Shown in pieces: positions 1-34,983 of a DNA stretch of 64,000 bases (the stretch's first letter is position 1; every line of letters begins with the position of its first letter). The translations under genes were made by a program, and so were the position numbers. Location: assembly GCF_017348835.2 (NCBI RefSeq), contig NZ_CP071375.1; one strand, given 5' to 3'. Source of the DNA: Escherichia coli (GTDB taxonomy: Bacteria > Pseudomonadota > Gammaproteobacteria > Enterobacterales > Enterobacteriaceae). A model generated the notes under the pieces. That model was not told the DNA's origin. It saw only the letters and a program-made list of their open reading frames with translations, and searched no databases.

Positions 1-1254
1 CATGGAGGGAAATTACGTATCTGGTTTGTTTATAAAGGCGTAAGAGTCAGGGAAAACCTGGGGGTTCCTGACACAGCAAAAAACAGGCGCGTTGCAGGTG
101 AGCTACGCGCCTCTGTTTGTTACGCAATAAAAACTGGTGTTTTCGACTATGCAAAACAGTTTCCCTCCTCACGCAATCTGGAAAAATTTGGTGAGACTCG
201 ACAAGATTTAACCATAAAAGAACTGGCTGAAAAATTTCTGGCACTGAAAGAAACTGAAGTCGCAAAAACATCACTCAACACATACCGTGCCGTCATCAAA
301 AATATCCTGAGCATAATCGGTGAAAAAAATCTTGCCTCATCGATTAATAAAGAAAAATTACTGGAGGTTCGTAAAGAGCTACTGACTGGATACCAGATCC
401 CCAAAAGTAACTATATTGTTACACAACCAGGGAGATCGGCTGTAACTGTAAATAATTACATGACAAATCTTAACGCCGTGTTCCAGTTTGGTGTTGATAA
501 CGGTTACCTGGCAGATAACCCGTTTAAGGGGATCTCGCCATTAAAGGAATCAAGAACCATTCCGGATCCTCTTTCGCGGGAGGAATTCATCCGTCTTATC
601 GATGCGTGCAGAAATCAGCAAGCCAAAAATTTATGGTGTGTTTCTGTTTATACTGGCGTTCGCCCTGGTGAGCTGTGTGCACTTGGATGGGAGGACATAG
701 ATCTGAAAAATGGAACAATGATGATCAGGAGAAATTTAGCAAAAGACCGTTTCACGGTACCAAAAACACAGGCGGGAACCAATCGGGTCATTCATCTTAT
801 TAAGCCAGCAATCGACGCTCTCCGGAGTCAGATGACATTAACGAGACTGAGCAAAGAGCATATCATTGATGTTCACCTCAGAGAGTATGGCAGAACAGAA
901 AAACATAAATGCACCTTTGTTTTTCAACCTGAAGTGTCAGCGAGAGTAAAAAATTATGGTGACCATTTTACCGTTGACTCAATAAGGCAGATGTGGGACG
1001 CAGCGATAAAACGTGCCGGACTCCGCCATCGAAAATCATATCAGTCGAGACATACTTATGCCTGCTGGTCGCTGACAGCTGGTGCTAATCCGGCATTTAT
1101 AGCAAACCAGATGGGCCATGCAGATGCGCAAATGGTATTTCAGGTATACGGAAAATGGATGTCTGAAAACAATAATGCACAGGTAGCTTTGTTAAATACA
1201 CAGTTAAGCGAGTTTGCCCCAACCATGCCCCATAACGAAGCAATGAAAAATTAA
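1..1254 (+). CDS. Phage-type tyrosine integrase; 5' end lies before the window. By synteny (immediately upstream of rspB) this is the position of the Qin prophage integrase in K-12
   Basis: Frame 1 is open from nt 1 to the stop at 1254; the C-terminal part has the tyrosine recombinase catalytic region (...HTYACWSL...GHADAQMVFQVYGKW) and the N-terminal part looks like an integrase arm-binding domain. Confidence 0.75.
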   Translation, partial: HGGKLRIWFVYKGVRVRENLGVPDTAKNRRVAGELRASVCYAIKTGVFDYAKQFPSSRNLEKFGETRQDLTIKELAEKFLALKETEVAKTSLNTYRAVIKNILSIIGEKNLASSINKEKLLEVRKELLTGYQIPKSNYIVTQPGRSAVTVNNYMTNLNAVFQFGVDNGYLADNPFKGISPLKESRTIPDPLSREEFIRLIDACRNQQAKNLWCVSVYTGVRPGELCALGWEDIDLKNGTMMIRRNLAKDRFTVPKTQAGTNRVIHLIKPAIDALRSQMTLTRLSKEHIIDVHLREYGRTEKHKCTFVFQPEVSARVKNYGDHFTVDSIRQMWDAAIKRAGLRHRKSYQSRHTYACWSLTAGANPAFIANQMGHADAQMVFQVYGKWMSENNNAQVALLNTQLSEFAPTMPHNEAMKN

Positions 1255-1441
1255 TTTAATATTTATCAAATAGTTGACACGTATGACTCTTGAAATCCAT
1301 AAATTCAAGCGCAGTGCCCAGCCATCCCGATACTGCTGCTTTCACCAAATCCTTAGTGCTTCTTTCGTGTTTTTCTATTGTCATAATGGTTATCTCTAAA
1401 AAAGAGGTAAGATGCGTACTACTTACTCGCAGTTATTGGTA

Positions 1442-2461
1442 TTATTCAGAAAAAGTGAGTAAGACTTTGCAGCAATGTTTTTGATCCTGTTCAAATAAAC
1501 TAATGGCATCAGCAACATGCTGGAAATCAAACGTATGGGTAATTAATTTTTCTGGTTTAATTAACCCTTTACTTAACCAGTCGATAACGACCGGAAATTT
1601 ATTTGCATTTAAGCGTGAAGAGAAAATAGAGAGTTCTTTTCCGGTAATTCCTTGCTGAATCACTTCAGACGGTTCACTGGAGAACCCCATCAATACAATA
1701 CGTGCCGCTGGAGAAGCCAGCGTTACGGCCTCTTTCAGGATAGAAGGATGACAAGCCGCATCGATAATTAATGTCGGCTTGATGCCTTTTTCAGTGAAAA
1801 TCTCGCCAAGCGGTGTCTGGCTGTTATTAATCGCCCAGTCAGCCCCGCTCTCTTTCGCTTTTTCCAGTCGTTCATCAATGCGATCGGCAACAATCACATT
1901 TTTAACGTTATAGACGCCTTTTAATACCTGAACGATCGTCAGGCCGATTGGACCGGCACCGTAAACCAGAACGGTATCATTTTCAGTCGGTTGACCATGA
2001 CCGGTTACGTTAGCCGCAATGGTAAAAGGTTCGATCATCACCGCATATTGATCGGCCACTGCTTCAGGAATTTTCCACGCATTTTTTGCCGGAACCACAG
2101 CATATTCACTGAAACCACCGTCAACGTGCACACCTAATACAGCGAGTGTCGTACAAACGTTCGGCTTACCTATAGAGCACGGATAGCAATGACCACAGCT
2201 GACCACCGGATCGACAGCAACACGTTCACCGACTCTGGTGCTTTCCACACCTTCACCCACCGCATCAATGACGCCAAAGAATTCATGTCCAATGACGCGC
2301 GGATATTTCGCAAAAGGATTATGCCCACGATAAATATGGCTATCTGAACCACAAATTCCGGCAAGTTTTACTTTTACTCGTACTTCACCCGCTGACGGGG
2401 TGGGTATTTCACGTTCGACAATCGCCAGTTGATTCGGTTTTTCAATTAATATGCTTTTCAT
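1442..2461 (-). CDS. rspB: Starvation-sensing protein RspB, Zn-dependent alcohol dehydrogenase family
   Basis: Translation starts MKSILIEKPNQLAIV and has the GHEFFG and Cys-rich Zn motifs; length and position match K-12 rspB. Confidence 0.9.
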   Translation of the reverse strand: MKSILIEKPNQLAIVEREIPTPSAGEVRVKVKLAGICGSDSHIYRGHNPFAKYPRVIGHEFFGVIDAVGEGVESTRVGERVAVDPVVSCGHCYPCSIGKPNVCTTLAVLGVHVDGGFSEYAVVPAKNAWKIPEAVADQYAVMIEPFTIAANVTGHGQPTENDTVLVYGAGPIGLTIVQVLKGVYNVKNVIVADRIDERLEKAKESGADWAINNSQTPLGEIFTEKGIKPTLIIDAACHPSILKEAVTLASPAARIVLMGFSSEPSEVIQQGITGKELSIFSSRLNANKFPVVIDWLSKGLIKPEKLITHTFDFQHVADAISLFEQDQKHCCKVLLTFSE

Positions 2462-9098: not shown

Positions 9099-11524
9099 AT
9101 GATGAAAATCCATACCACAGAGGCGCTCATGAAGGCTGAAATCAGCCGTAGAAGTCTGATGAAAACCTCCGCACTTGGCAGTCTTGCGCTGGCAAGCAGT
9201 GCTTTCACTCTGCCATTTTCCCAAATGGTCCGGGCGGCAGAGGCTCCGGTAGAAGAGAAAGCGGTCTGGAGTTCCTGCACCGTTAACTGCGGGAGCCGCT
9301 GTCTGTTACGTTTGCATGTGAAAGATGACACCGTGTACTGGGTGGAGTCTGATACGACAGGTGACGACGTCTACGGTAATCATCAGGTTCGAGCGTGTTT
9401 ACGCGGTCGCTCTATCCGCCGACGGATGAATCATCCTGATAGGTTGAAATATCCCATGAAGCGCGTCGGCAAGCGCGGTGAAGGTAAATTTGAACGGATA
9501 AGTTGGAACGAAGCCCTGGATACCATCAGTGATAATCTTCGGCGGATCCTAAAAGATTACGGCAATGAGGCTGTACATGTCCTGTACGGAACAGGTGTAG
9601 ATGGCGGAAACATCACCAACTCAAACGTCCCGTACCGTCTGATGAACTCTTGCGGTGGTTTTCTCAGTCGCTATGGCAGCTACAGTACCGCACAGATCAG
9701 TGCCGCATGAGTTATATGTTCGGTGCCAATGATGGCAACAGCCCGGATGATATCGCCAATACGAAACTGGTCGTTATGTTCGGAAATAACCCGGCAGAAA
9801 CACGGATGAGCGGCGGTGGTGTCACTTACTACGTCGAGCAAGCCCGCGAACGTTCAAACGCACGCATGATCGTCATCGATCCACGTTATAACGACACAGC
9901 TGCCGGGCGTGAAGATGAATGGCTGCCCATTCGCCCTGGCACCGATGGCGCACTGGCCTGTGCGATTGCCTGGGTACTGATTACTGAAAACATGGTCGAA
10001 CAGCCATTTCTCGACAAATATTGTGTTGGTTATGATGAAAAAACGCTGCCCGCCAACGCACCACGTAACGCGCATTATAAAGCCTATATTCTGGGCGAAG
10101 GGCCTGACGGCATAGCTAAAACGCCGGAATGGGCAGCAAAAATCACCAGCATCCCGGCAGAAAAAATTATCCAGTTGGCGCGAGAGATCGGTTCAGCAAA
10201 ACCTGCTTATATTTGTCAGGGTTGGGGGCCACAACGACACTCCAACGGCGAACAAACATCCCGCGCTATTGCCATGCTTTCCGTTCTCACCGGTAACGTC
10301 GGCATAAACGGCGGCAACTCAGGCGTACGCGAAGGTAGCTGGGATCTGGGGGTAGAATGGTTTCCGATGCTCGAGAATCCTGTTAAAACGCAGATTTCCG
10401 TCTTTACATGGACAGATGCCATCGACCATGGTAAGGAAATGACCGCGACCCGTGATGGTGTTCGTGGAAAAGAAAAACTGGATGTCCCCATCAAGTTTTT
10501 ATGGTGCTACGCCAGTAACACATTGATCAATCAACATGGTGACATCAATCACACCCATGAGGTGCTTCAGGATGACAGCAAGTGCGAGATGATTGTTGGC
10601 ATTGACCACTTCATGACTGCCTCGGCTAAGTATTGCGATATCCTGTTGCCCGACCTGATGCCAACAGAGCAAGAAGACCTTATCTCTCATGAATCTGCCG
10701 GGAATATGGGCTATGTGATCCTCGCCCAACCCGCAACCTCAGCAAAATTTGAACGCAAACCCATCTACTGGATGCTGAGTGAAGTCGCCAAACGCTTAGG
10801 ACCGGACGTTTATCAAACCTTTACTGAAGGTCGCAGTCAGCATGAATGGATCAAATATCTCCATGCGAAAACGAAGGAACGTAACCCTGAGATGCCCGAC
10901 TACGAGGAGATGAAAACAACCGGGATCTTTAAGAAAAAATGCCCGGAAGAACACTACGTCGCTTTCCGCGCATTCCGTGAAGATCCACAGGCAAACCCGT
11001 TGAAAACACCTTCGGGGAAAATCGAAATTTATTCTGAACGACTGGCGAAGATTGCAGATACCTGGGAATTGAACAAAGATGAAATTATTCATCCCCTTCC
11101 TGCGTATACCCCAGGTTTTGATGGCTGGGACGATCCCCTGCGGAAAACCTATCCACTGCAGTTAACGGGCTTCCACTACAAAGCGCGTACCCACTCCAGC
11201 TACGGCAATATTGATGTGTTACAGCAGGCCTGCCCACAAGAGGTGTGGATCAACCCCATTGATGCTCAGGCTCGCGGTATCCGTCATGGCGATACCGTAC
11301 GGGTATTTAACAATAATGGAGAAATGCTGATTGCCGCAAAAGTGACTCCGCGTATTCTGCCTGGCGTTACCGCCATCGGGCAAGGTGCGTGGCTTAAAGC
11401 AGATATGTTTGGTGACCGGGTCGATCACGGCGGCAGTATCAATATTCTGACCTCTCACCGCCCTTCACCGCTGGCAAAGGGAAACCCGTCGCACAGCAAT
11501 CTTGTCCAGATCGAAAAGGTTTAA
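9099..11524 (+). pseudogene. ynfF: DmsA-paralog YnfF, apparently frameshifted: the reading frame breaks near 9700 (...TAQISAA* then MSYMFGANDG in the +1 frame)
   Basis: Two ORFs (9099..9710 and 9650..11524) together cover a full-length YnfE paralog; a single missing base around 9705..9708 would restore one 807-aa frame. Confidence 0.6.
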
Positions 11525-30155: not shown

Positions 30156-30389
30156 TTATTCTCCGGTGTGCTGTTCTTTATATCTGTCGTGCAATAGATC
30201 TATTTCTTGCAGTTCCATTATTACATGCTCAAGAATCGTTATTAATGCCGTGGCAATTCTTGATTTTTGTTTGTCGCGTTCATTGTCGCCAAGTGTTTCA
30301 AGCCATATGCGCAATATTTCCAGCATGTTTTCACTGTGAGAAAGTGCAAGAAATGCGCGGTCTATTGTTTCGAGGTAAATATCACGCAT
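30156..30389 (-). CDS. Hypothetical protein (77 aa)
   Basis: ORF in the operon upstream of rep. Confidence 0.4.
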   Translation of the reverse strand: MRDIYLETIDRAFLALSHSENMLEILRIWLETLGDNERDKQKSRIATALITILEHVIMELQEIDLLHDRYKEQHTGE

Positions 30390-30390
30390 A

Positions 30391-30612
30391 TTAATCCCCG
30401 TCCGTTGTTTTTCTTAAAATAACTTCTGTCACGAAATCAGCATAGTTAGCGGCAATATCAAGAATATTTAGCCCTGTATCTCTGTGCTCATCAGTGCAAA
30501 GAAAGAAAAAAGCCACCCGCATAATTTCAGATATTGACGAAAGCGCATCAGCCGCATCATCAGGAACGCCGGAAAATTCTTGTTTCAGGGAATTAAAACG
30601 ATCATCACGCAT
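30391..30612 (-). CDS. Hypothetical protein (~73 aa; start uncertain)
   Basis: ORF in the operon; start chosen just downstream of the preceding stop. Confidence 0.3.
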   Translation of the reverse strand: MRDDRFNSLKQEFSGVPDDAADALSSISEIMRVAFFFLCTDEHRDTGLNILDIAANYADFVTEVILRKTTDGD

Positions 30613-30821
30613 AACCCCCCCCATTTTCATAATCTGCAACAAGAATATTTTTAGCGTCATTCAGCGACCGCGTGGCGGTGTATCGGATACATTCCAGGGC
30701 GAACAATGTGTATTCCTCCCGTTCTTCCTTTTGTGCAAGCTCTGCCGTGCATTCAATATCAATAAGCGCGTGCATCAGCGTAGTGAGTGCGGCTGCGTCC
30801 GGACGGATGTTATTGCACATG
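30605..30821 (-). CDS. Hypothetical protein (~72 aa)
   Basis: ORF in the operon; start at internal Met MCNNIRPD. Confidence 0.3.
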
Positions 30822-31043
30822 GTGTACCCCTCCGCATTTTTTTTCGTTAGAAATAAGCGTTCTTCTTTCCTGTTCATCGCTCAGGAATACGCAGACCTCA
30901 CCGCTAAGGCGTTTAAGTAAGCCGATGATTGCCCCTGATTCGCTGTCGGTCATCATGCCAGGGTAATCCTCTGCCAGTGCGCAAATAACTTCGATTTGGT
31001 GGGCGCGTTCTGCTGCCTGTTGTAGTGTGATTTCCTGGCTCAT
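30810..31043 (-). CDS. Hypothetical protein (~77 aa)
   Basis: ORF in the operon; start MSQEITLQQ, ATGA-coupled to the upstream gene. Confidence 0.35.
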   Translation of the reverse strand: MSQEITLQQAAERAHQIEVICALAEDYPGMMTDSESGAIIGLLKRLSGEVCVFLSDEQERRTLISNEKKCGGVHHVQ

Positions 31044-31234
31044 AAGCCTACCCCCTGGCGAATACGGGCGGCGAATACAGCAACACAACCTGACGGGCAA
31101 CGGTTACGCGCTTCGCGTTCCGTCCAGGCGGTTACGTGGATTATTTGAGATTCTCCGGCACTCAGTGCCAGAAAACGCCACACAAAGGCCGTTTGTGTGT
31201 GTACAAGGTGTGGTATATGATTTACAGCAACCAT
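31040..31234 (-). CDS. Hypothetical protein (~64 aa), first gene of the minus-strand early operon
   Basis: Start MVAVNHIPHLV; lies next to the divergent promoter region. Confidence 0.3.
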   Translation of the reverse strand: MVAVNHIPHLVHTQTAFVWRFLALSAGESQIIHVTAWTEREARNRCPSGCVAVFAARIRQGVGL

Positions 31235-31326
31235 AACGGCTCCTAGTTTACGTTGTTGGTTAGAAGCCCTGCGAGTGGTAACGACACTTGCGGGGCTTTG
31301 TCTTTTCATCGATTACCTTGATAAAG

Positions 31327-31408
31327 GTGTCAGCCACTATATTAGTAACGGGTGTCAGCCACGTCAATAGTGTTTTTCCGTTTTCTTGTGTGTATACTGT
31401 CAGCCACC
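31327..31408. promoter_or_regulatory. Divergent promoter/operator region with three direct repeats of GTGTCAGCCAC
   Basis: Repeats at 31327..31337, 31352..31362 and 31398..31407, the last next to the RBS of the plus-strand gene. Confidence 0.55.
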
Positions 31409-31428
31409 TAATAACGAGGAAATCAGAT

Positions 31429-31608
31429 ATGGCAACAAAAGCAGTTAATGCAAAATCCAAAAAGCTTGAGGCTCGAGTACCACACGCAATAGCTGATGCT
31501 GTAGAAAATTTAAAGGAAGATGGCGAAAGTACAGGGCAATTTATCGTTTCGGCACTTGAAGGCGAGATCAAACGCCGCCAGCGCCGCAAGGCCAAAGAAT
31601 CAGAATAA
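31429..31608 (+). CDS. Small basic protein (59 aa), divergently transcribed; candidate island regulator
   Basis: ORF MATKAVNAKSKKLEARVPHAIADAVENLKEDGESTGQFIVSALEGEIKRRQRRKAKESE with a GAGGA-like RBS. Confidence 0.45.
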   Translation: MATKAVNAKSKKLEARVPHAIADAVENLKEDGESTGQFIVSALEGEIKRRQRRKAKESE

Positions 31609-31650
31609 TCACTATCAGCGCCGTGGTGTGAGGTATTACGGCGCATTGCT

Positions 31651-31839
31651 ATGCAGGACAACACAATGACCGATAAAGAATTGACCAAAACATTATCACC
31701 GGCACGGAAAAGACGGCGCAGAAAGATAGAACATGAATCAGAAAGATTCGCGCCATGTGCTTTTGCCCTTGAGCAATTCCTTAAAGAGTACAGGGAAAAG
31801 CGCTCATTGCAGGTATGGCAACGAACTGAACCAGACTGA
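31651..31839 (+). CDS. Hypothetical small basic protein (start uncertain)
   Basis: Second plus-strand ORF before the plus-strand terminator. Confidence 0.3.
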   Translation: MQDNTMTDKELTKTLSPARKRRRRKIEHESERFAPCAFALEQFLKEYREKRSLQVWQRTEPD

Positions 31840-31934
31840 TTGCATTGCCCACCAGCCTGATAGCGGCTATCATCCCCGTGCTTATGTTTGGGATCACACA
31901 CACAAACGGCGCAGCGGGTTATCTGTTCAGAAAG

Positions 31935-31962
31935 GCGGCTCCATTTCGGGGCCGCTTTTTTT
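31935..31962 (+). terminator. Intrinsic terminator of the plus-strand small-gene transcript (GCGGCTCC ... GGGGCCGC followed by TTTTTTT)
   Basis: 8-bp stem with one G-U pair, followed by a U-run. Confidence 0.6.
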
Positions 31963-32108
31963 ATGCCTGAAAAACCCCAATTTTGTGGTTTTCCAGTCTC
32001 ACCAGGGCGAACGAATCCCCGCCCACGTTCTGGCGTATATTCAATCTTCATGGTTATAGCTCTGTGTTCAGATGATTGATGTGTGGCGGCTGTGTGCCGC
32101 CAGCGTGA

Positions 32109-32297
32109 TTAATGAACTGCCTTGCAGCTATCCTTCCAGGCCAGAACCTCGGATAAAGACCAGCCAACGGAACGACCGCCAAGTTTACGACGTGATGGGA
32201 ATTGTCCGGCCTTTTCCAGGCGGTAGCGGCATGAGCGGCTAAGGCCTGTTAGCTTTTCGCATTCTTTTTCACGTATAAACCGATCAGTGCTTAACAC
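32109..32297 (-). CDS. alpA: AlpA-family transcriptional regulator / excisionase-like protein
   Basis: 62 aa, MLSTDRFIREKECEKLTGLSRSCRYRLEKAGQFPSRRKLGGRSVGWSLSEVLAW, a typical AlpA HTH. Confidence 0.8.
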   Translation of the reverse strand: MLSTDRFIREKECEKLTGLSRSCRYRLEKAGQFPSRRKLGGRSVGWSLSEVLAWKDSCKAVH

Positions 32298-32456
32298 TAT
32301 TGCCCCCTTTCGTTTCTTAAAGAGTTATTTCGTGTTCTATTGCGTTGGGATGTGTCTGATTGTGTCAGGATGATTCAGAGTTGGCAAATGTTGAGGTCGT
32401 ATGGTTTACAGAAACAGGAATAATCAGGATAAAATCATTTAAATTCATGTTAATAC

Positions 32457-32490
32457 AAAGGCATAAAATATTGTTTCATGCCTTTTTTCT
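32457..32490 (+). terminator. Plus-strand hairpin with U-run (AAAGGCAT ... ATGCCTTT TTTTCTC) in the alpA-int intergenic region
   Basis: Read directly from the sequence; there is no annotated plus-strand gene upstream. Confidence 0.45.
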
Positions 32491-32671
32491 CGCCATTTAA
32501 AGAGTGATTCGCTAGTGTATAAAAAACCAGTAACACATTAAAAATCAGCCACTTATAAATCCGTACACTTTTTCGCCTCTTGTTCGTAGTTGTTCCGCAT
32601 TGTTGCTCATTGTTGCATGTTGTATCTGTTCGCATATCCAGTATGCGCATACTGAAAAAACACGAAAAAAA

Positions 32672-33901
32672 TTATTTTCTTCTGGCTACTGGTAGCGTGG
32701 TTACGTTTTCATGTGTTCCCGCCAGTATCCCTAACCGCTCCGTCCACATATCCAGCGCATTGCGTTTAGCATCCAGATAACGGGAATGATTATAAACTCG
32801 CTGCATTCCTGGCATCTGATGACCTGTAAGCTGCTCCACGACATGCGGATCAACGCCTAAATCGTTCAGCATGGTTGTAAAGGTGCGCCGGATGTCATGC
32901 AGTGACCAGTGAGGATGATTAAGCCTCCTGTGCGCTAATCTTCCATACTGCGATACGCTGGCCTCCTGTTTCGCTTCCCCCAGCAATAAGCCCGTGTGCC
33001 TGTTCTGCTCCACCAGCTGCGTGACGAACGGCAGGATCGCTTCCGGTATGGGCCGGAATATTGCGACCTTCGTTTTGCTGTGCTCCTTCGGAACGGTCCA
33101 TAGCATTTCCGTAAAATCCCACTCCCCGATCTCCGATAGCCTCAGTTCTACCGTCCTGGCTCCGAAGACAATCAGGAGGCGGATTAACGCGACGTAGTAA
33201 GGGGAAAATATTTTTTTGTCCAGTGCCTGCAATAATTCGCCAAGTTCTTTGTTACTTAAGACACGTTCGCTTATATCCGGTTTTTTCCCAACGTCCGCCA
33301 CGTTCAGATCGTCCAGAACGTTGCTGATTGCATAGCGCCGCCTACGGCAGAACTTAAGCGCCTGTTTGCACGCCTGTAGCACGAATCCGGCAGTAACAGG
33401 CGTTCGCTTTGCCACCTGGTCAAAACAGGCCAGCCAGTGCCGTAGCTCGCATTTATCCAGCGGCATAGCACCAATCTGCTGTATTACGTGATTATTAAGT
33501 CGCCTTTTCAGGGCGATATAATCCACGCGGTTTTCCTTTACGTAATACTCAAGCCAGTAGGTGAGCGCATCGCCAACCGTTACGGGCTTTAACGCTTCCT
33601 GTACGGTGTAATTCATCTCATGACGTGGATTTTTCCCCTCAGCCAGCCATGTGCGACACTGTGCGGCTTTTTCCCTGGCTGCTTTCAGGCTCAGATCAGG
33701 ATAACTTCCCAGCTTAATGCGTTCGGGTCGTGTCTCCCTTCCCGTTCCGGCCCTGTATGTGAAATACCAGGTCAATTTCCCTGATGTTAAATATTTCACG
33801 CTCAGGTTTCCGCCATCACTATAAAACGTGTTTTTCTCCGCTGGCTTACCATGAAGTTTCCTTAGCAAGGTATCGCTCAGTTTGTTCATTGCTCTGCTCA
33901 C
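32672..33901 (-). CDS. int: Tyrosine integrase, P4-like family
   Basis: 409 aa; N-terminal P4-type arm-binding region (GKLTWYFTYRAGTGRETRPERIKLGSYPDLSLKAAREKA) and a C-terminal catalytic domain (HDIRRTF...Y); adjacent to attR. Confidence 0.85.
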   Translation of the reverse strand: MSRAMNKLSDTLLRKLHGKPAEKNTFYSDGGNLSVKYLTSGKLTWYFTYRAGTGRETRPERIKLGSYPDLSLKAAREKAAQCRTWLAEGKNPRHEMNYTVQEALKPVTVGDALTYWLEYYVKENRVDYIALKRRLNNHVIQQIGAMPLDKCELRHWLACFDQVAKRTPVTAGFVLQACKQALKFCRRRRYAISNVLDDLNVADVGKKPDISERVLSNKELGELLQALDKKIFSPYYVALIRLLIVFGARTVELRLSEIGEWDFTEMLWTVPKEHSKTKVAIFRPIPEAILPFVTQLVEQNRHTGLLLGEAKQEASVSQYGRLAHRRLNHPHWSLHDIRRTFTTMLNDLGVDPHVVEQLTGHQMPGMQRVYNHSRYLDAKRNALDMWTERLGILAGTHENVTTLPVARRK

Positions 33902-33926
33902 GTTTTACCCCCTCTTTACGAAAAAG

Positions 33927-33949
33927 TGACTACACCAGTGACTACACCG
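33927..33949. repeat. Putative integrase arm-type site, right copy (TGACTACACCAGTGACTACACCG)
   Basis: Exact 23-bp direct repeat of 22668..22690. Confidence 0.55.
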
Positions 33950-34076
33950 ATCGTTGCACAAAGGGCTACAACGTGAAACAAGCTGGAACAAGGAAAATCA
34001 CAAATCTGTTGATAATCAAAAACATAATGCACAGCCTGAAACATTATGAAACAGCAAAAAACACTAAATGATAAAA

Positions 34077-34085
34077 TGCTGTTAT
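34077..34085. other. attR core, right copy of TGCTGTTAT
   Basis: Island-to-tqsA junction; tqsA sequence resumes in frame. Confidence 0.6.
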
Positions 34086-34983
34086 TCTTAACCCGCTGGT
34101 GCAACACATGGTCCGCTGGCGAGTGCCGCGTGTACTGGCGGTGTCGATTTTGATGACCATCATCGTGATGGCTATGGTGTTGCTGTTAGCTTATCTGGGT
34201 TCCGCGCTCAACGAGTTGACGCGGACGTTACCGCAATATCGCAACTCTATTATGACGCCGCTGCAAGCGCTTGAACCGTTGTTGCAACGCGTAGGGATTG
34301 ACGTCTCAGTTGACCAGCTGGCGCATTATATTGATCCGAACGCGGCGATGACGTTGCTCACCAACTTATTGACGCAGTTATCTAATGCCATGTCATCAAT
34401 ATTTTTATTGCTGCTGACGGTGCTGTTTATGCTGCTCGAAGTGCCACAATTGCCCGGAAAATTTCAGCAAATGATGGCGCGTCCGGTTGAAGGGATGGCG
34501 GCGATTCAGCGTGCGATTGACAGTGTGTCTCATTATCTGGTGCTGAAAACAGCCATCAGCATCATCACCGGCCTGGTCGCATGGGCGATGCTCGCCGCCC
34601 TCGATGTTCGCTTCGCTTTTGTCTGGGGATTGCTGGCCTTTGCGCTTAATTACATCCCTAATATTGGTTCAGTTCTCGCGGCAATCCCCCCTATCGCTCA
34701 GGTACTGGTATTTAATGGCTTCTACGAAGCGTTGCTGGTGCTGGCGGGATATCTGCTGATTAATCTGGTCTTCGGCAATATTCTGGAGCCGCGCATCATG
34801 GGGCGTGGGCTGGGTCTTTCCACATTGGTGGTATTTTTGTCGTTGATTTTTTGGGGATGGTTGTTAGGACCGGTGGGTATGCTGCTTTCCGTGCCGTTGA
34901 CAATTATTGTCAAAATTGCGCTTGAACAAACAGCGGGAGGTCAAAGCATCGCCGTTCTGTTAAGCGATCTCAATAAAGAGTGA
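34085..34983 (+). pseudogene. tqsA: 3' fragment of tqsA (AI-2E family transporter), about 299 codons, separated from its start and promoter
   Basis: Translation [24 protein letters not shown]... continues the 5' fragment at 22457..22591. Confidence 0.85.

What the first reader, a model, noticed from the sequence alone, without database searches (positions are those of the whole stretch)
1..1254. Second integrase at the window edge marks the boundary of an upstream prophage
A lambdoid-type integrase distinct from the island's P4-type integrase ends at 1254, directly upstream of rspB, where K-12 carries the Qin prophage end. A resident lambdoid prophage is a plausible helper for the lambda-type satellite.
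Basis: partly seen in the sequence, partly recalled or inferred. Interest (0 to 1): 0.25.

Follow-up and report, generated by a model that had tools for sequence, protein, structure and literature searches.

The report
Integrase of a decayed Qin-type prophage
The gene at the window edge is the intact integrase of a common, heavily decayed Qin-type prophage inserted in the E. coli ydfJ gene, and because that prophage has lost all its head and tail genes it cannot be the helper of the nearby phage satellite.

Summary
Window 1..1254 (+) is codons 10-426 of a 426-aa tyrosine integrase. It has Arm-DNA-bind_2 and Phage_integrase domains and is unrelated to the island's P4-type integrase. It lies next to rspB, exactly where K-12 has intQ at the end of Qin.

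The window differs from E. coli PE164 (NZ_CP114128.1) at 3 of 64,000 bases, so I read the upstream DNA from that record.

The integrase differs by 2 residues from that of the functional lambdoid phage mEp460_ev081. Its excisionase is identical, and both att arms match that phage's attP at 499 of 500 bases. The true prophage boundary is an 11-bp core, GAAATCCATAA, at window 1292-1302. Beyond it lies the severed 5' end of ydfJ.

The upstream element is a 19.4-kb remnant. It keeps lambda cos, Nu1, gpA residues 1-349 fused to a tail-fibre end, lysis and cold-shock genes, IS elements and pseudogenes. It has no portal, capsid, tail, replication or repressor genes.

A separate prophage at argU, 0.94 Mb away, carries a complete lambda-type packaging, head and tail module. 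It is a better helper candidate, but untested.

This is ordinary and already known.

The parts
1..1254 (+). Integrase gene, codons 10-426 plus stop. The full CDS starts 27 nt before the window. It is the orthologue of K-12 intQ, but intact.
   Evidence: Open frame. Full CDS in PE164, L001 19974..21254. Pfam PF12167 and PF00589. 2 aa and 4 nt differences from the integrase of phage mEp460_ev081. 4 aa differences from the in-frame part of K-12 intQ.
1255..1291 (.). Integrase-proximal att arm, the spacer between the int stop codon and the core. The arm continues back into the 3' end of int.
   Evidence: The 250 nt before the core are 249/250 identical to the corresponding attP arm of mEp460_ev081. 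A 15-nt motif here has a second copy on the other side of the core in attP; this is a weak two-copy repeat.
1292..1302 (.). 11-bp att core GAAATCCATAA. This is the true prophage/chromosome junction on the integrase side.
   Evidence: The same 11-mer occurs at the other prophage end inside ydfJ (L001 1867-1877), at both annotated ends of K-12 Qin, and in mEp460 attP 38 nt beyond the int stop. Joining the two flanks at the core rebuilds an intact 455-aa YdfJ. That rebuilt empty site is present in 2007 of 5426 complete E. coli genomes.
1256..1384 (-). Severed 5' end of ydfJ: the first 31 codons of YdfJ, then phage-derived codons. This is the ynfP-like ORF.
   Evidence: The ORF begins MTIEKHERSTKDLVKAAVSGWLGTALEFMDF, identical to the N-terminus of the reconstructed YdfJ. 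K-12 annotates ynfP at the same place.
1442..2461 (-). rspB, the first chromosomal gene beyond the prophage. It is a flank, not part of the element.
   Evidence: PGAP annotation of PE164; ORF.

Best explanation
Window 1..1254 is the integrase of a Qin-type (mEp460-like) lambdoid prophage inserted in the 5' end of ydfJ. The ancestral phage recombined its attP, which lies 38 nt beyond int, with an 11-bp core in ydfJ. This split the gene and left int beside the right-hand junction, next to rspB. In this strain the prophage has decayed to 19.4 kb. A deletion fused gpA codon 349 to the end of a tail-fibre gene and removed all head and tail genes. IS insertions and deletions removed the replication and immunity regions. 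The recombination module survived essentially unchanged: int, xis and both att arms. The protein is therefore most likely still an active tyrosine recombinase that, if expressed with Xis, could excise the remnant and restore ydfJ. Shown here: gene identity, the att sites, the decay of the prophage and the lack of helper functions. Inferred: that the integrase is active, and whether it is expressed.
For: The window matches PE164 with 3 mismatches in 64 kb. Identity to phage integrases is, and mEp460_ev081 is described as a functional temperate phage in PMC10448788. Int differs by 2 aa and Xis is identical. The att arms match at 249/250 and 250/250. Catalytic residues R230, K264, R359, H382 and Y392 align with the Tn1549 Int structure. 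The att core lies at both ends and at the K-12 Qin ends. The reconstructed attB gives an intact YdfJ and is found empty in 2007 genomes. The remnant's content comes from annotation and tblastn. Its cos-Nu1-A' stretch is 98.6% identical to lambda over 2008 bp. The literature reports Qin at the 5' end of ydfJ in 48% of strains, at sizes of 11-97 kb (PMC6379469), and ydfJ as a lambdoid integration site (PMC8112680).
Against: No sigma-70 consensus promoter was found upstream of xis or int; the region gave 2 hits, both inside int, against 5.2 expected by chance. The early-left promoter and regulator region is missing, so expression is uncertain. The first His of the HxxR motif is Tyr (Y356), although the functional phage's integrase has the same residue. 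The upstream sequence comes from a near-identical public genome, not from the window itself.
Confidence: 0.9

Rival explanations
1. One reading: the integrase marks the end of an intact resident lambdoid prophage that supplies packaging, head and tail functions to the lambda-type satellite at tqsA.
For: The remnant carries an exact lambda cosN and an intact Nu1 homologue. The satellite also has exact cosN sites and a Nu1-like TerS.
Against: The element is 19.4 kb. gpA is cut at residue 349 of 641 and so lacks its C-terminal 292 residues (one search finds only the ATPase domain). No W, B, C, D, E, FI, FII, Z-J, O or P homologues are found, nor mEp460 portal, capsid, tape-measure, J, replication or repressor homologues. 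It contains many pseudogenes and IS elements.
Confidence: 0.02
2. The integrase is a dead relic, either catalytically inactive or never expressed, like intQ in K-12, and the remnant is permanently fixed in the chromosome.
For: No consensus promoter lies upstream. The phage regulatory region is lost. A review reports mutations in intQ in most Qin copies (PMC6379469). The argU prophage of the same strain has a pseudogenised integrase.
Against: The gene is full length, with 4 nt differences from a functional phage's int. Xis is identical and the att arms are intact. The 1623-nt xis-int-att module is covered at 80% or more in 2350 of 5426 genomes, and is annotated as intact genes in the rows sampled across the ranking.
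Confidence: 0.15
3. The int-xis module is kept by selection for a host-level role, namely reversible excision that switches the transporter gene ydfJ on and off, rather than being a passive leftover.
For: Excision would rebuild an intact 455-aa YdfJ. The recombination module is far better preserved than the rest of the element. The module is present in 43% of complete genomes.
Against: The near-identity to a circulating phage fits recent acquisition or gene conversion equally well. K-12-type truncations exist. With 4 differences, too few substitutions separate the two int genes for a selection test to mean anything. There are no expression data.
Confidence: 0.05

Closest known systems
K-12 cryptic prophage Qin and its integrase pseudogene intQ (b1579)
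   Same: Same insertion site in ydfJ and the same 11-bp core at both ends. The flanks are the same: ydfI-ydfJ' on one side, ynfP-rspB on the other. The two integrases differ at 4 residues over the shared 385 codons. Shared genes include ydfK, pinQ, tfaQ, nohA, cspI, cspB, cspF, the lysis genes and ydfT.
   Different: K-12 intQ lost its first 40 codons, and everything upstream of it, to IS2E; here int and xis are intact. This copy lacks dicA, dicB, dicC, dicF, relBE, hokD and rem. It keeps 1 kb more of gpA and carries IS3-family and ISEsa1 insertions.
Integrase, excisionase and attP of the functional lambdoid phage mEp460_ev081 (LR597641), and of HannyBb, PhiR42_1 and Tritos
   Same: Int is 99.1-99.5% identical, Xis is identical, and attP equals the two prophage arms joined at the core.
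   Different: Those are complete 45-49 kb phages. mEp460 has a different packaging and head module, whereas the remnant's packaging stub is lambda's own type.
Integrases of Stx-converting and other lambdoid phages (annotated intR in some Stx-phage records; VT1-Sakai, BP-4795)
   Same: Same length class, 61-63% identical over the full length. Architecture was not tested for these phage integrases.
   Different: They are different proteins. Their integration sites were not examined here, apart from a 'yecE' label in some record names.
Phage lambda Int
   Same: Tyrosine recombinase with an N-terminal arm-binding domain. The gene sits next to attP, with xis just upstream and int at the prophage end.
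   Different: Only 21% identity over 105 residues (E 2e-5). Pfam reports PF12167 here and no hit to lambda's own arm-binding family, which I recall as PF09003.

Membership tests
Phage tyrosine integrase (tyrosine recombinase with arm-binding domain) | C-terminal catalytic domain of the Phage_integrase family | tested here: met
   PF00589, E 3.8e-18, residues 201-392. PHROG 1 integrase, E 4e-77.
Phage tyrosine integrase (tyrosine recombinase with arm-binding domain) | Catalytic residues R, K, H-x-x-R, H/W and the tyrosine nucleophile | tested here: met
   R230, K264, R359, H382 and Y392 are present and align with Tn1549 Int (6EMY). The first His of HxxR is Tyr356, the same residue as in the integrase of functional phage mEp460.
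Phage tyrosine integrase (tyrosine recombinase with arm-binding domain) | N-terminal arm-type DNA-binding domain | tested here: met
   PF12167 Arm-DNA-bind_2, E 5.5e-24, residues 4-67.
Phage tyrosine integrase (tyrosine recombinase with arm-binding domain) | Gene next to an att site whose core is repeated at the other end of the element, with a cognate excisionase | tested here: met
   The core lies 38 nt past the stop codon and again in ydfJ. Xis (PF06806, E 1.6e-31) lies directly upstream.
Phage tyrosine integrase (tyrosine recombinase with arm-binding domain) | Recombination activity | not testable with these tools
   Inferred only, from near-identity to a functional phage's module.
Qin / ydfJ-site prophage | Insertion in the 5' end of ydfJ with the Qin att core | tested here: met
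   Literature: PMC6379469 and PMC8112680.
Qin / ydfJ-site prophage | Integrase orthologous to intQ, and gene content shared with K-12 Qin | tested here: met
   98.7% nt identity across int and the junction. Several blocks are shared at 91-99%. 4 aa differences from intQ.
Intact lambdoid prophage able to act as a satellite helper | Complete terminase (small subunit plus full-length large subunit with nuclease domain) | tested here: not met
   Nu1 is intact, but gpA stops at residue 349 of 641 and is fused to tail-fibre repeats. Only the GpA_ATPase domain is found.
Intact lambdoid prophage able to act as a satellite helper | Portal, protease/scaffold, capsid, connector and tail genes | tested here: not met
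   tblastn with 22 lambda and 7 mEp460 proteins finds none of them in the 19.4 kb, and none are annotated.
Intact lambdoid prophage able to act as a satellite helper | Replication and immunity modules; genome size about 40-50 kb | tested here: not met
   No O, P, mEp460 replication or repressor homologues. The element spans L001 1864-21307, 19,444 bp.
Lambda Int subfamily in the strict sense | Lambda-type arm-binding domain and clear sequence similarity to lambda Int | tested here: not met
   Pfam reports PF12167 and no hit to lambda's own arm-binding family, which I recall as PF09003. 21% identity over 105 aa.

The most novel reading that the evidence does not exclude
The 19.4-kb remnant is not inert. 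It has a working int/xis/att module, a cos-Nu1 region 98.6% identical to lambda's, and no structural genes of its own. It could therefore behave as a cos-bearing hitch-hiker: excising and being packaged, or soaking up terminase, when the lambda-type prophage at argU or an infecting lambda-like phage is active. It would then compete or interfere with the tqsA satellite, which uses the same cosN. Nothing tested here excludes this. However, the remnant has no replication module, and from general knowledge of lambda packaging a 19.4-kb monomer is far below the size a lambda head accepts.
Probability: 0.04. Interest if true: 0.4.

Novelty: already known. Interest (0 to 1): 0.08.

Why it matters
It matters mainly as housekeeping for the neighbouring satellite finding. 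It removes the adjacent prophage as a helper candidate and points to the argU prophage instead. That prophage has a complete lambda-type packaging, head and tail module and the same cosN. The analysis also fixes the exact prophage boundary at window 1292-1302. Finally, it shows that in this strain, unlike K-12, the Qin-type recombination module is intact. That makes excision of the remnant, and restoration of the ydfJ transporter gene, an easy experiment.

Tried and rejected
- **tRNA target.** ARAGORN found no tRNA genes in the window. The integrase targets a protein-coding gene, not a tRNA.
- **Solved structures.** The sequence search gave only distant matches (Tn1549 Int, E 4e-9). It served only to place the catalytic residues.
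- **Promoters.** The scan upstream of xis and int found no consensus promoter, fewer hits than chance, so expression is unresolved.
- **Arm-type sites.** The repeat search in mEp460 attP gave only weak two-copy motifs. I do not claim arm-type sites (one search was a failed request).
- **Selection test.** A dN/dS test on int is uninformative, with only 4 nucleotide differences from mEp460.
- **Locating the second gpA copy.** I first guessed its position in PE164 from K-12 coordinates. This landed in the nuo/men region, because the genome is oriented opposite to K-12 there. A second guess found the argU prophage.
- **Python access to L007.** The locus never appeared in the Python data folder, so I compared that prophage with lambda using DNA alignment and protein comparison instead.
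- **Whole-genome prophage survey.** Only lambda-gpA-like places were counted: 2 in PE164.

Full report
**Source of the window.** Window 1-1500 matches E. coli PE164 (NZ_CP114128.1, 2633049 onward) at 100%. The satellite island at 21500-34500 is found at 100% only in that genome, at colinear coordinates. Base-by-base comparison gives 3 mismatches and no indels over all 64,000 bases. I therefore treat PE164 as the source, or a near-clone of it. I read the DNA upstream of the window from locus L001, where window position equals L001 position minus 20000.

**The observation.** Frame +1 is open from base 1 to the stop at 1252-1254.
- In PE164 the CDS starts 27 nt before the window and encodes 426 aa.
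- Pfam finds an Arm-DNA-bind_2 domain (E 5.5e-24) and a Phage_integrase catalytic domain (E 3.8e-18). PHROG 1 'integrase' matches at E 4e-77.
- Residues R230, K264, R359, H382 and Y392 align with the catalytic residues of the closest solved structure, Tn1549 Int. The first His of HxxR is a Tyr.
- The island's integrase (32672..33901, -) has the P4-type architecture, Arm-DNA-bind_3 plus Phage_int_M. It shows no significant BLASTP similarity to this one.

So the second, distinct integrase is real.

**Is it 'lambdoid'?** It is only remotely like lambda Int itself: 21% identity over 105 residues. It is, however, 99.1-99.5% identical to the integrases of four complete lambdoid phage genomes: mEp460_ev081, HannyBb, PhiR42_1 and Tritos. 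It is 61-63% identical to integrases of many Stx-converting lambdoid phages. mEp460_ev081 is described as a functional temperate phage carrying Qin-like dicB, dicF, dicAC and rem (PMC10448788).

Against mEp460 the gene differs at 4 nucleotides (2 amino acids, T75A and H301Y). The upstream excisionase (PF06806) is identical in protein sequence.

**The boundary.**
- An 11-bp direct repeat, GAAATCCATAA, lies at window 1292-1302 and at L001 1867-1877 inside ydfJ.
- The same 11-mer sits at both annotated ends of K-12 Qin, and in mEp460 38 nt beyond the int stop.
- Homology of PE164 to mEp460 runs into this core from both sides.
- The 250 nt on each side of the core are 249/250 and 250/250 identical to the phage attP arms.
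- Joining the chromosomal flanks at the core rebuilds an uninterrupted 455-aa YdfJ.
- That reconstructed empty site occurs as one contiguous match in 2007 of 5426 complete E. coli genomes.

The short ORF at 1256..1384 (-) is the severed 5' end of ydfJ, annotated ynfP in K-12. So the prophage ends at 1292-1302, not at 1254. This agrees with published descriptions of Qin inserting at the 5' end of ydfJ (PMC6379469) and of ydfJ as a lambdoid integration site (PMC8112680).

**What lies upstream.** The element spans L001 1864-21307, which is 19,444 bp.
- PGAP annotates, in locus order: ynfT, ydfK, pinQ, tfaQ, a 'terminase large subunit family' ORF, nohA, gnsB, ynfN, cspI, rzpQ, a frameshifted rrrQ, essD, cspB, a broken cspF and ydfT.
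- These are followed by an IS3-family element, an ISEsa1 fragment and five pseudogenes, then xis and int.
- The cos-nohA-A' stretch is 98.6% identical to phage lambda over 2008 bp, with an exact cosN.
- The 'terminase' ORF is lambda gpA residues 1-349 fused in frame to a tail-fibre C-terminus. Pfam sees only the ATPase domain.
- tblastn with 22 lambda proteins and 7 mEp460 proteins finds only Nu1, gpA 1-349, the Stf C-terminus and Tfa. It finds no portal, protease, decoration, capsid, connector, tail, replication or repressor gene.
- This particular gpA'-stf junction occurs in 62 of 5426 genomes.

Compared with K-12 Qin, this copy keeps int, xis and 1 kb more of gpA. It lacks the dic, rel and hok region. 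K-12 intQ begins exactly where IS2E ends and so lacks the first 40 codons.

**How common it is.** The int-rspB junction is covered at 80% or more in 2708 of 5426 complete genomes. The whole xis-int-att module is covered at 80% or more in 2350 genomes, and is annotated as intact genes in rows sampled across the ranking. A 2019 survey found Qin in 48% of strains, at sizes from 11 to 97 kb (PMC6379469). This is an ordinary, widespread feature.

**The helper question.** The remnant shares only the cos type with the satellite. The satellite has two exact cosN 12-mers and a Nu1-like TerS that is 37% identical to lambda Nu1.

I then asked whether PE164 holds lambda-type packaging genes elsewhere. The gpA N-terminal fragment matches exactly two places in PE164. 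The second is a prophage of about 40 kb at the argU/DLP12 site (record 3,572,4xx-3,612,4xx).
- It carries full-length Nu1, A, W, B, C, D, E, FI, FII, Z through J, stf and tfa, none flagged as a pseudogene.
- Its gpA is 638/641 identical to lambda's.
- It has an exact cosN and a cosB nearly identical to lambda's.
- Its integrase intD is a pseudogene.

This prophage is a more plausible resident helper, but I did not test that.

**Mechanism and confidence.**
- Shown: the gene is the integrase of a Qin-type prophage at ydfJ. The att sites are defined. The prophage is a remnant without helper functions.
- Inferred: the integrase is catalytically competent, because int, xis and both arms are almost identical to those of a functional phage.
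- Unknown: whether int and xis are expressed. The phage's regulatory region is gone and no consensus promoter precedes xis or int.

**Verdict.** The feature is already known and of low interest in itself.

Noticed in passing
window 23635-23706 and 24503-24574: The satellite island carries two exact lambda cosN 12-mers in opposite orientation. Each sits in a 72-nt inverted repeat (81% complementary), and the pair flanks the Nu1-like terS gene. The (+) copy is followed by a lambda-like cosB layout. The (-) copy, upstream of terS, diverges from lambda about 34 nt after the start of cosN. Two convergent cos sites on one satellite are unusual and deserve their own look.
   Followed up: partly
window 23857-24369 (-), and 25031-25430 region: The satellite TerS is 37% identical to lambda Nu1 residues 28-180. 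It matches only the C-terminal part of the Nu1 Pfam profile (positions 73-162), so its N-terminal DNA-binding part differs. PGAP marks both this terS and the head-decoration gene of the island as frameshifted, so the satellite itself may be damaged.
   Followed up: partly
PE164 record 3,572,421-3,612,389 (L007 12422 to L008 2390); outside the window: A prophage of about 40 kb at argU/DLP12 has a complete lambda-type packaging, head and tail module, an exact cosN and a gpA 99% identical to lambda's. It also carries iss and an ompC-like porin gene, and its intD is a pseudogene. It is a candidate resident helper for the tqsA satellite.
   Followed up: partly
L001 4475-6737 (upstream of the window): The remnant's packaging stub (cos, nohA, gpA 1-349) is 98.6% identical to phage lambda. 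Its closest whole-phage relative for int, xis, the lysis genes and the pin region, mEp460, uses an unrelated terminase and head module. This is a clear case of lambdoid mosaicism. The gpA'-stf in-frame fusion occurs in 62 of 5426 genomes.
   Followed up: yes
window 22457-22600 and 34078-34983: The satellite island is inserted in tqsA, the AI-2 transporter gene, and splits it into a 5' fragment and a 3' part. The island's P4-type integrase lies next to the 3' part.
   Followed up: no
window as a whole, against L006 and L007: The window region (ydfI to ydgJ, including tus) runs in the same direction as in K-12. The two other PE164 regions sampled (nuo-men-arn-glp, and cusS-ompT-argU-purK) run in the opposite direction. 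PE164 therefore probably has a large inversion spanning the terminus region relative to K-12. The endpoints were not located.
   Followed up: no
window 9102-11524 and 18244-19496: PGAP marks ynfF (a selenate/tellurate reductase subunit) and ynfM (an MFS transporter) as frameshifted pseudogenes in this strain.
   Followed up: no
window 6570, 26736, 50805: These are the only three positions where the window differs from the PE164 RefSeq record. All are single-base substitutions.
   Followed up: yes
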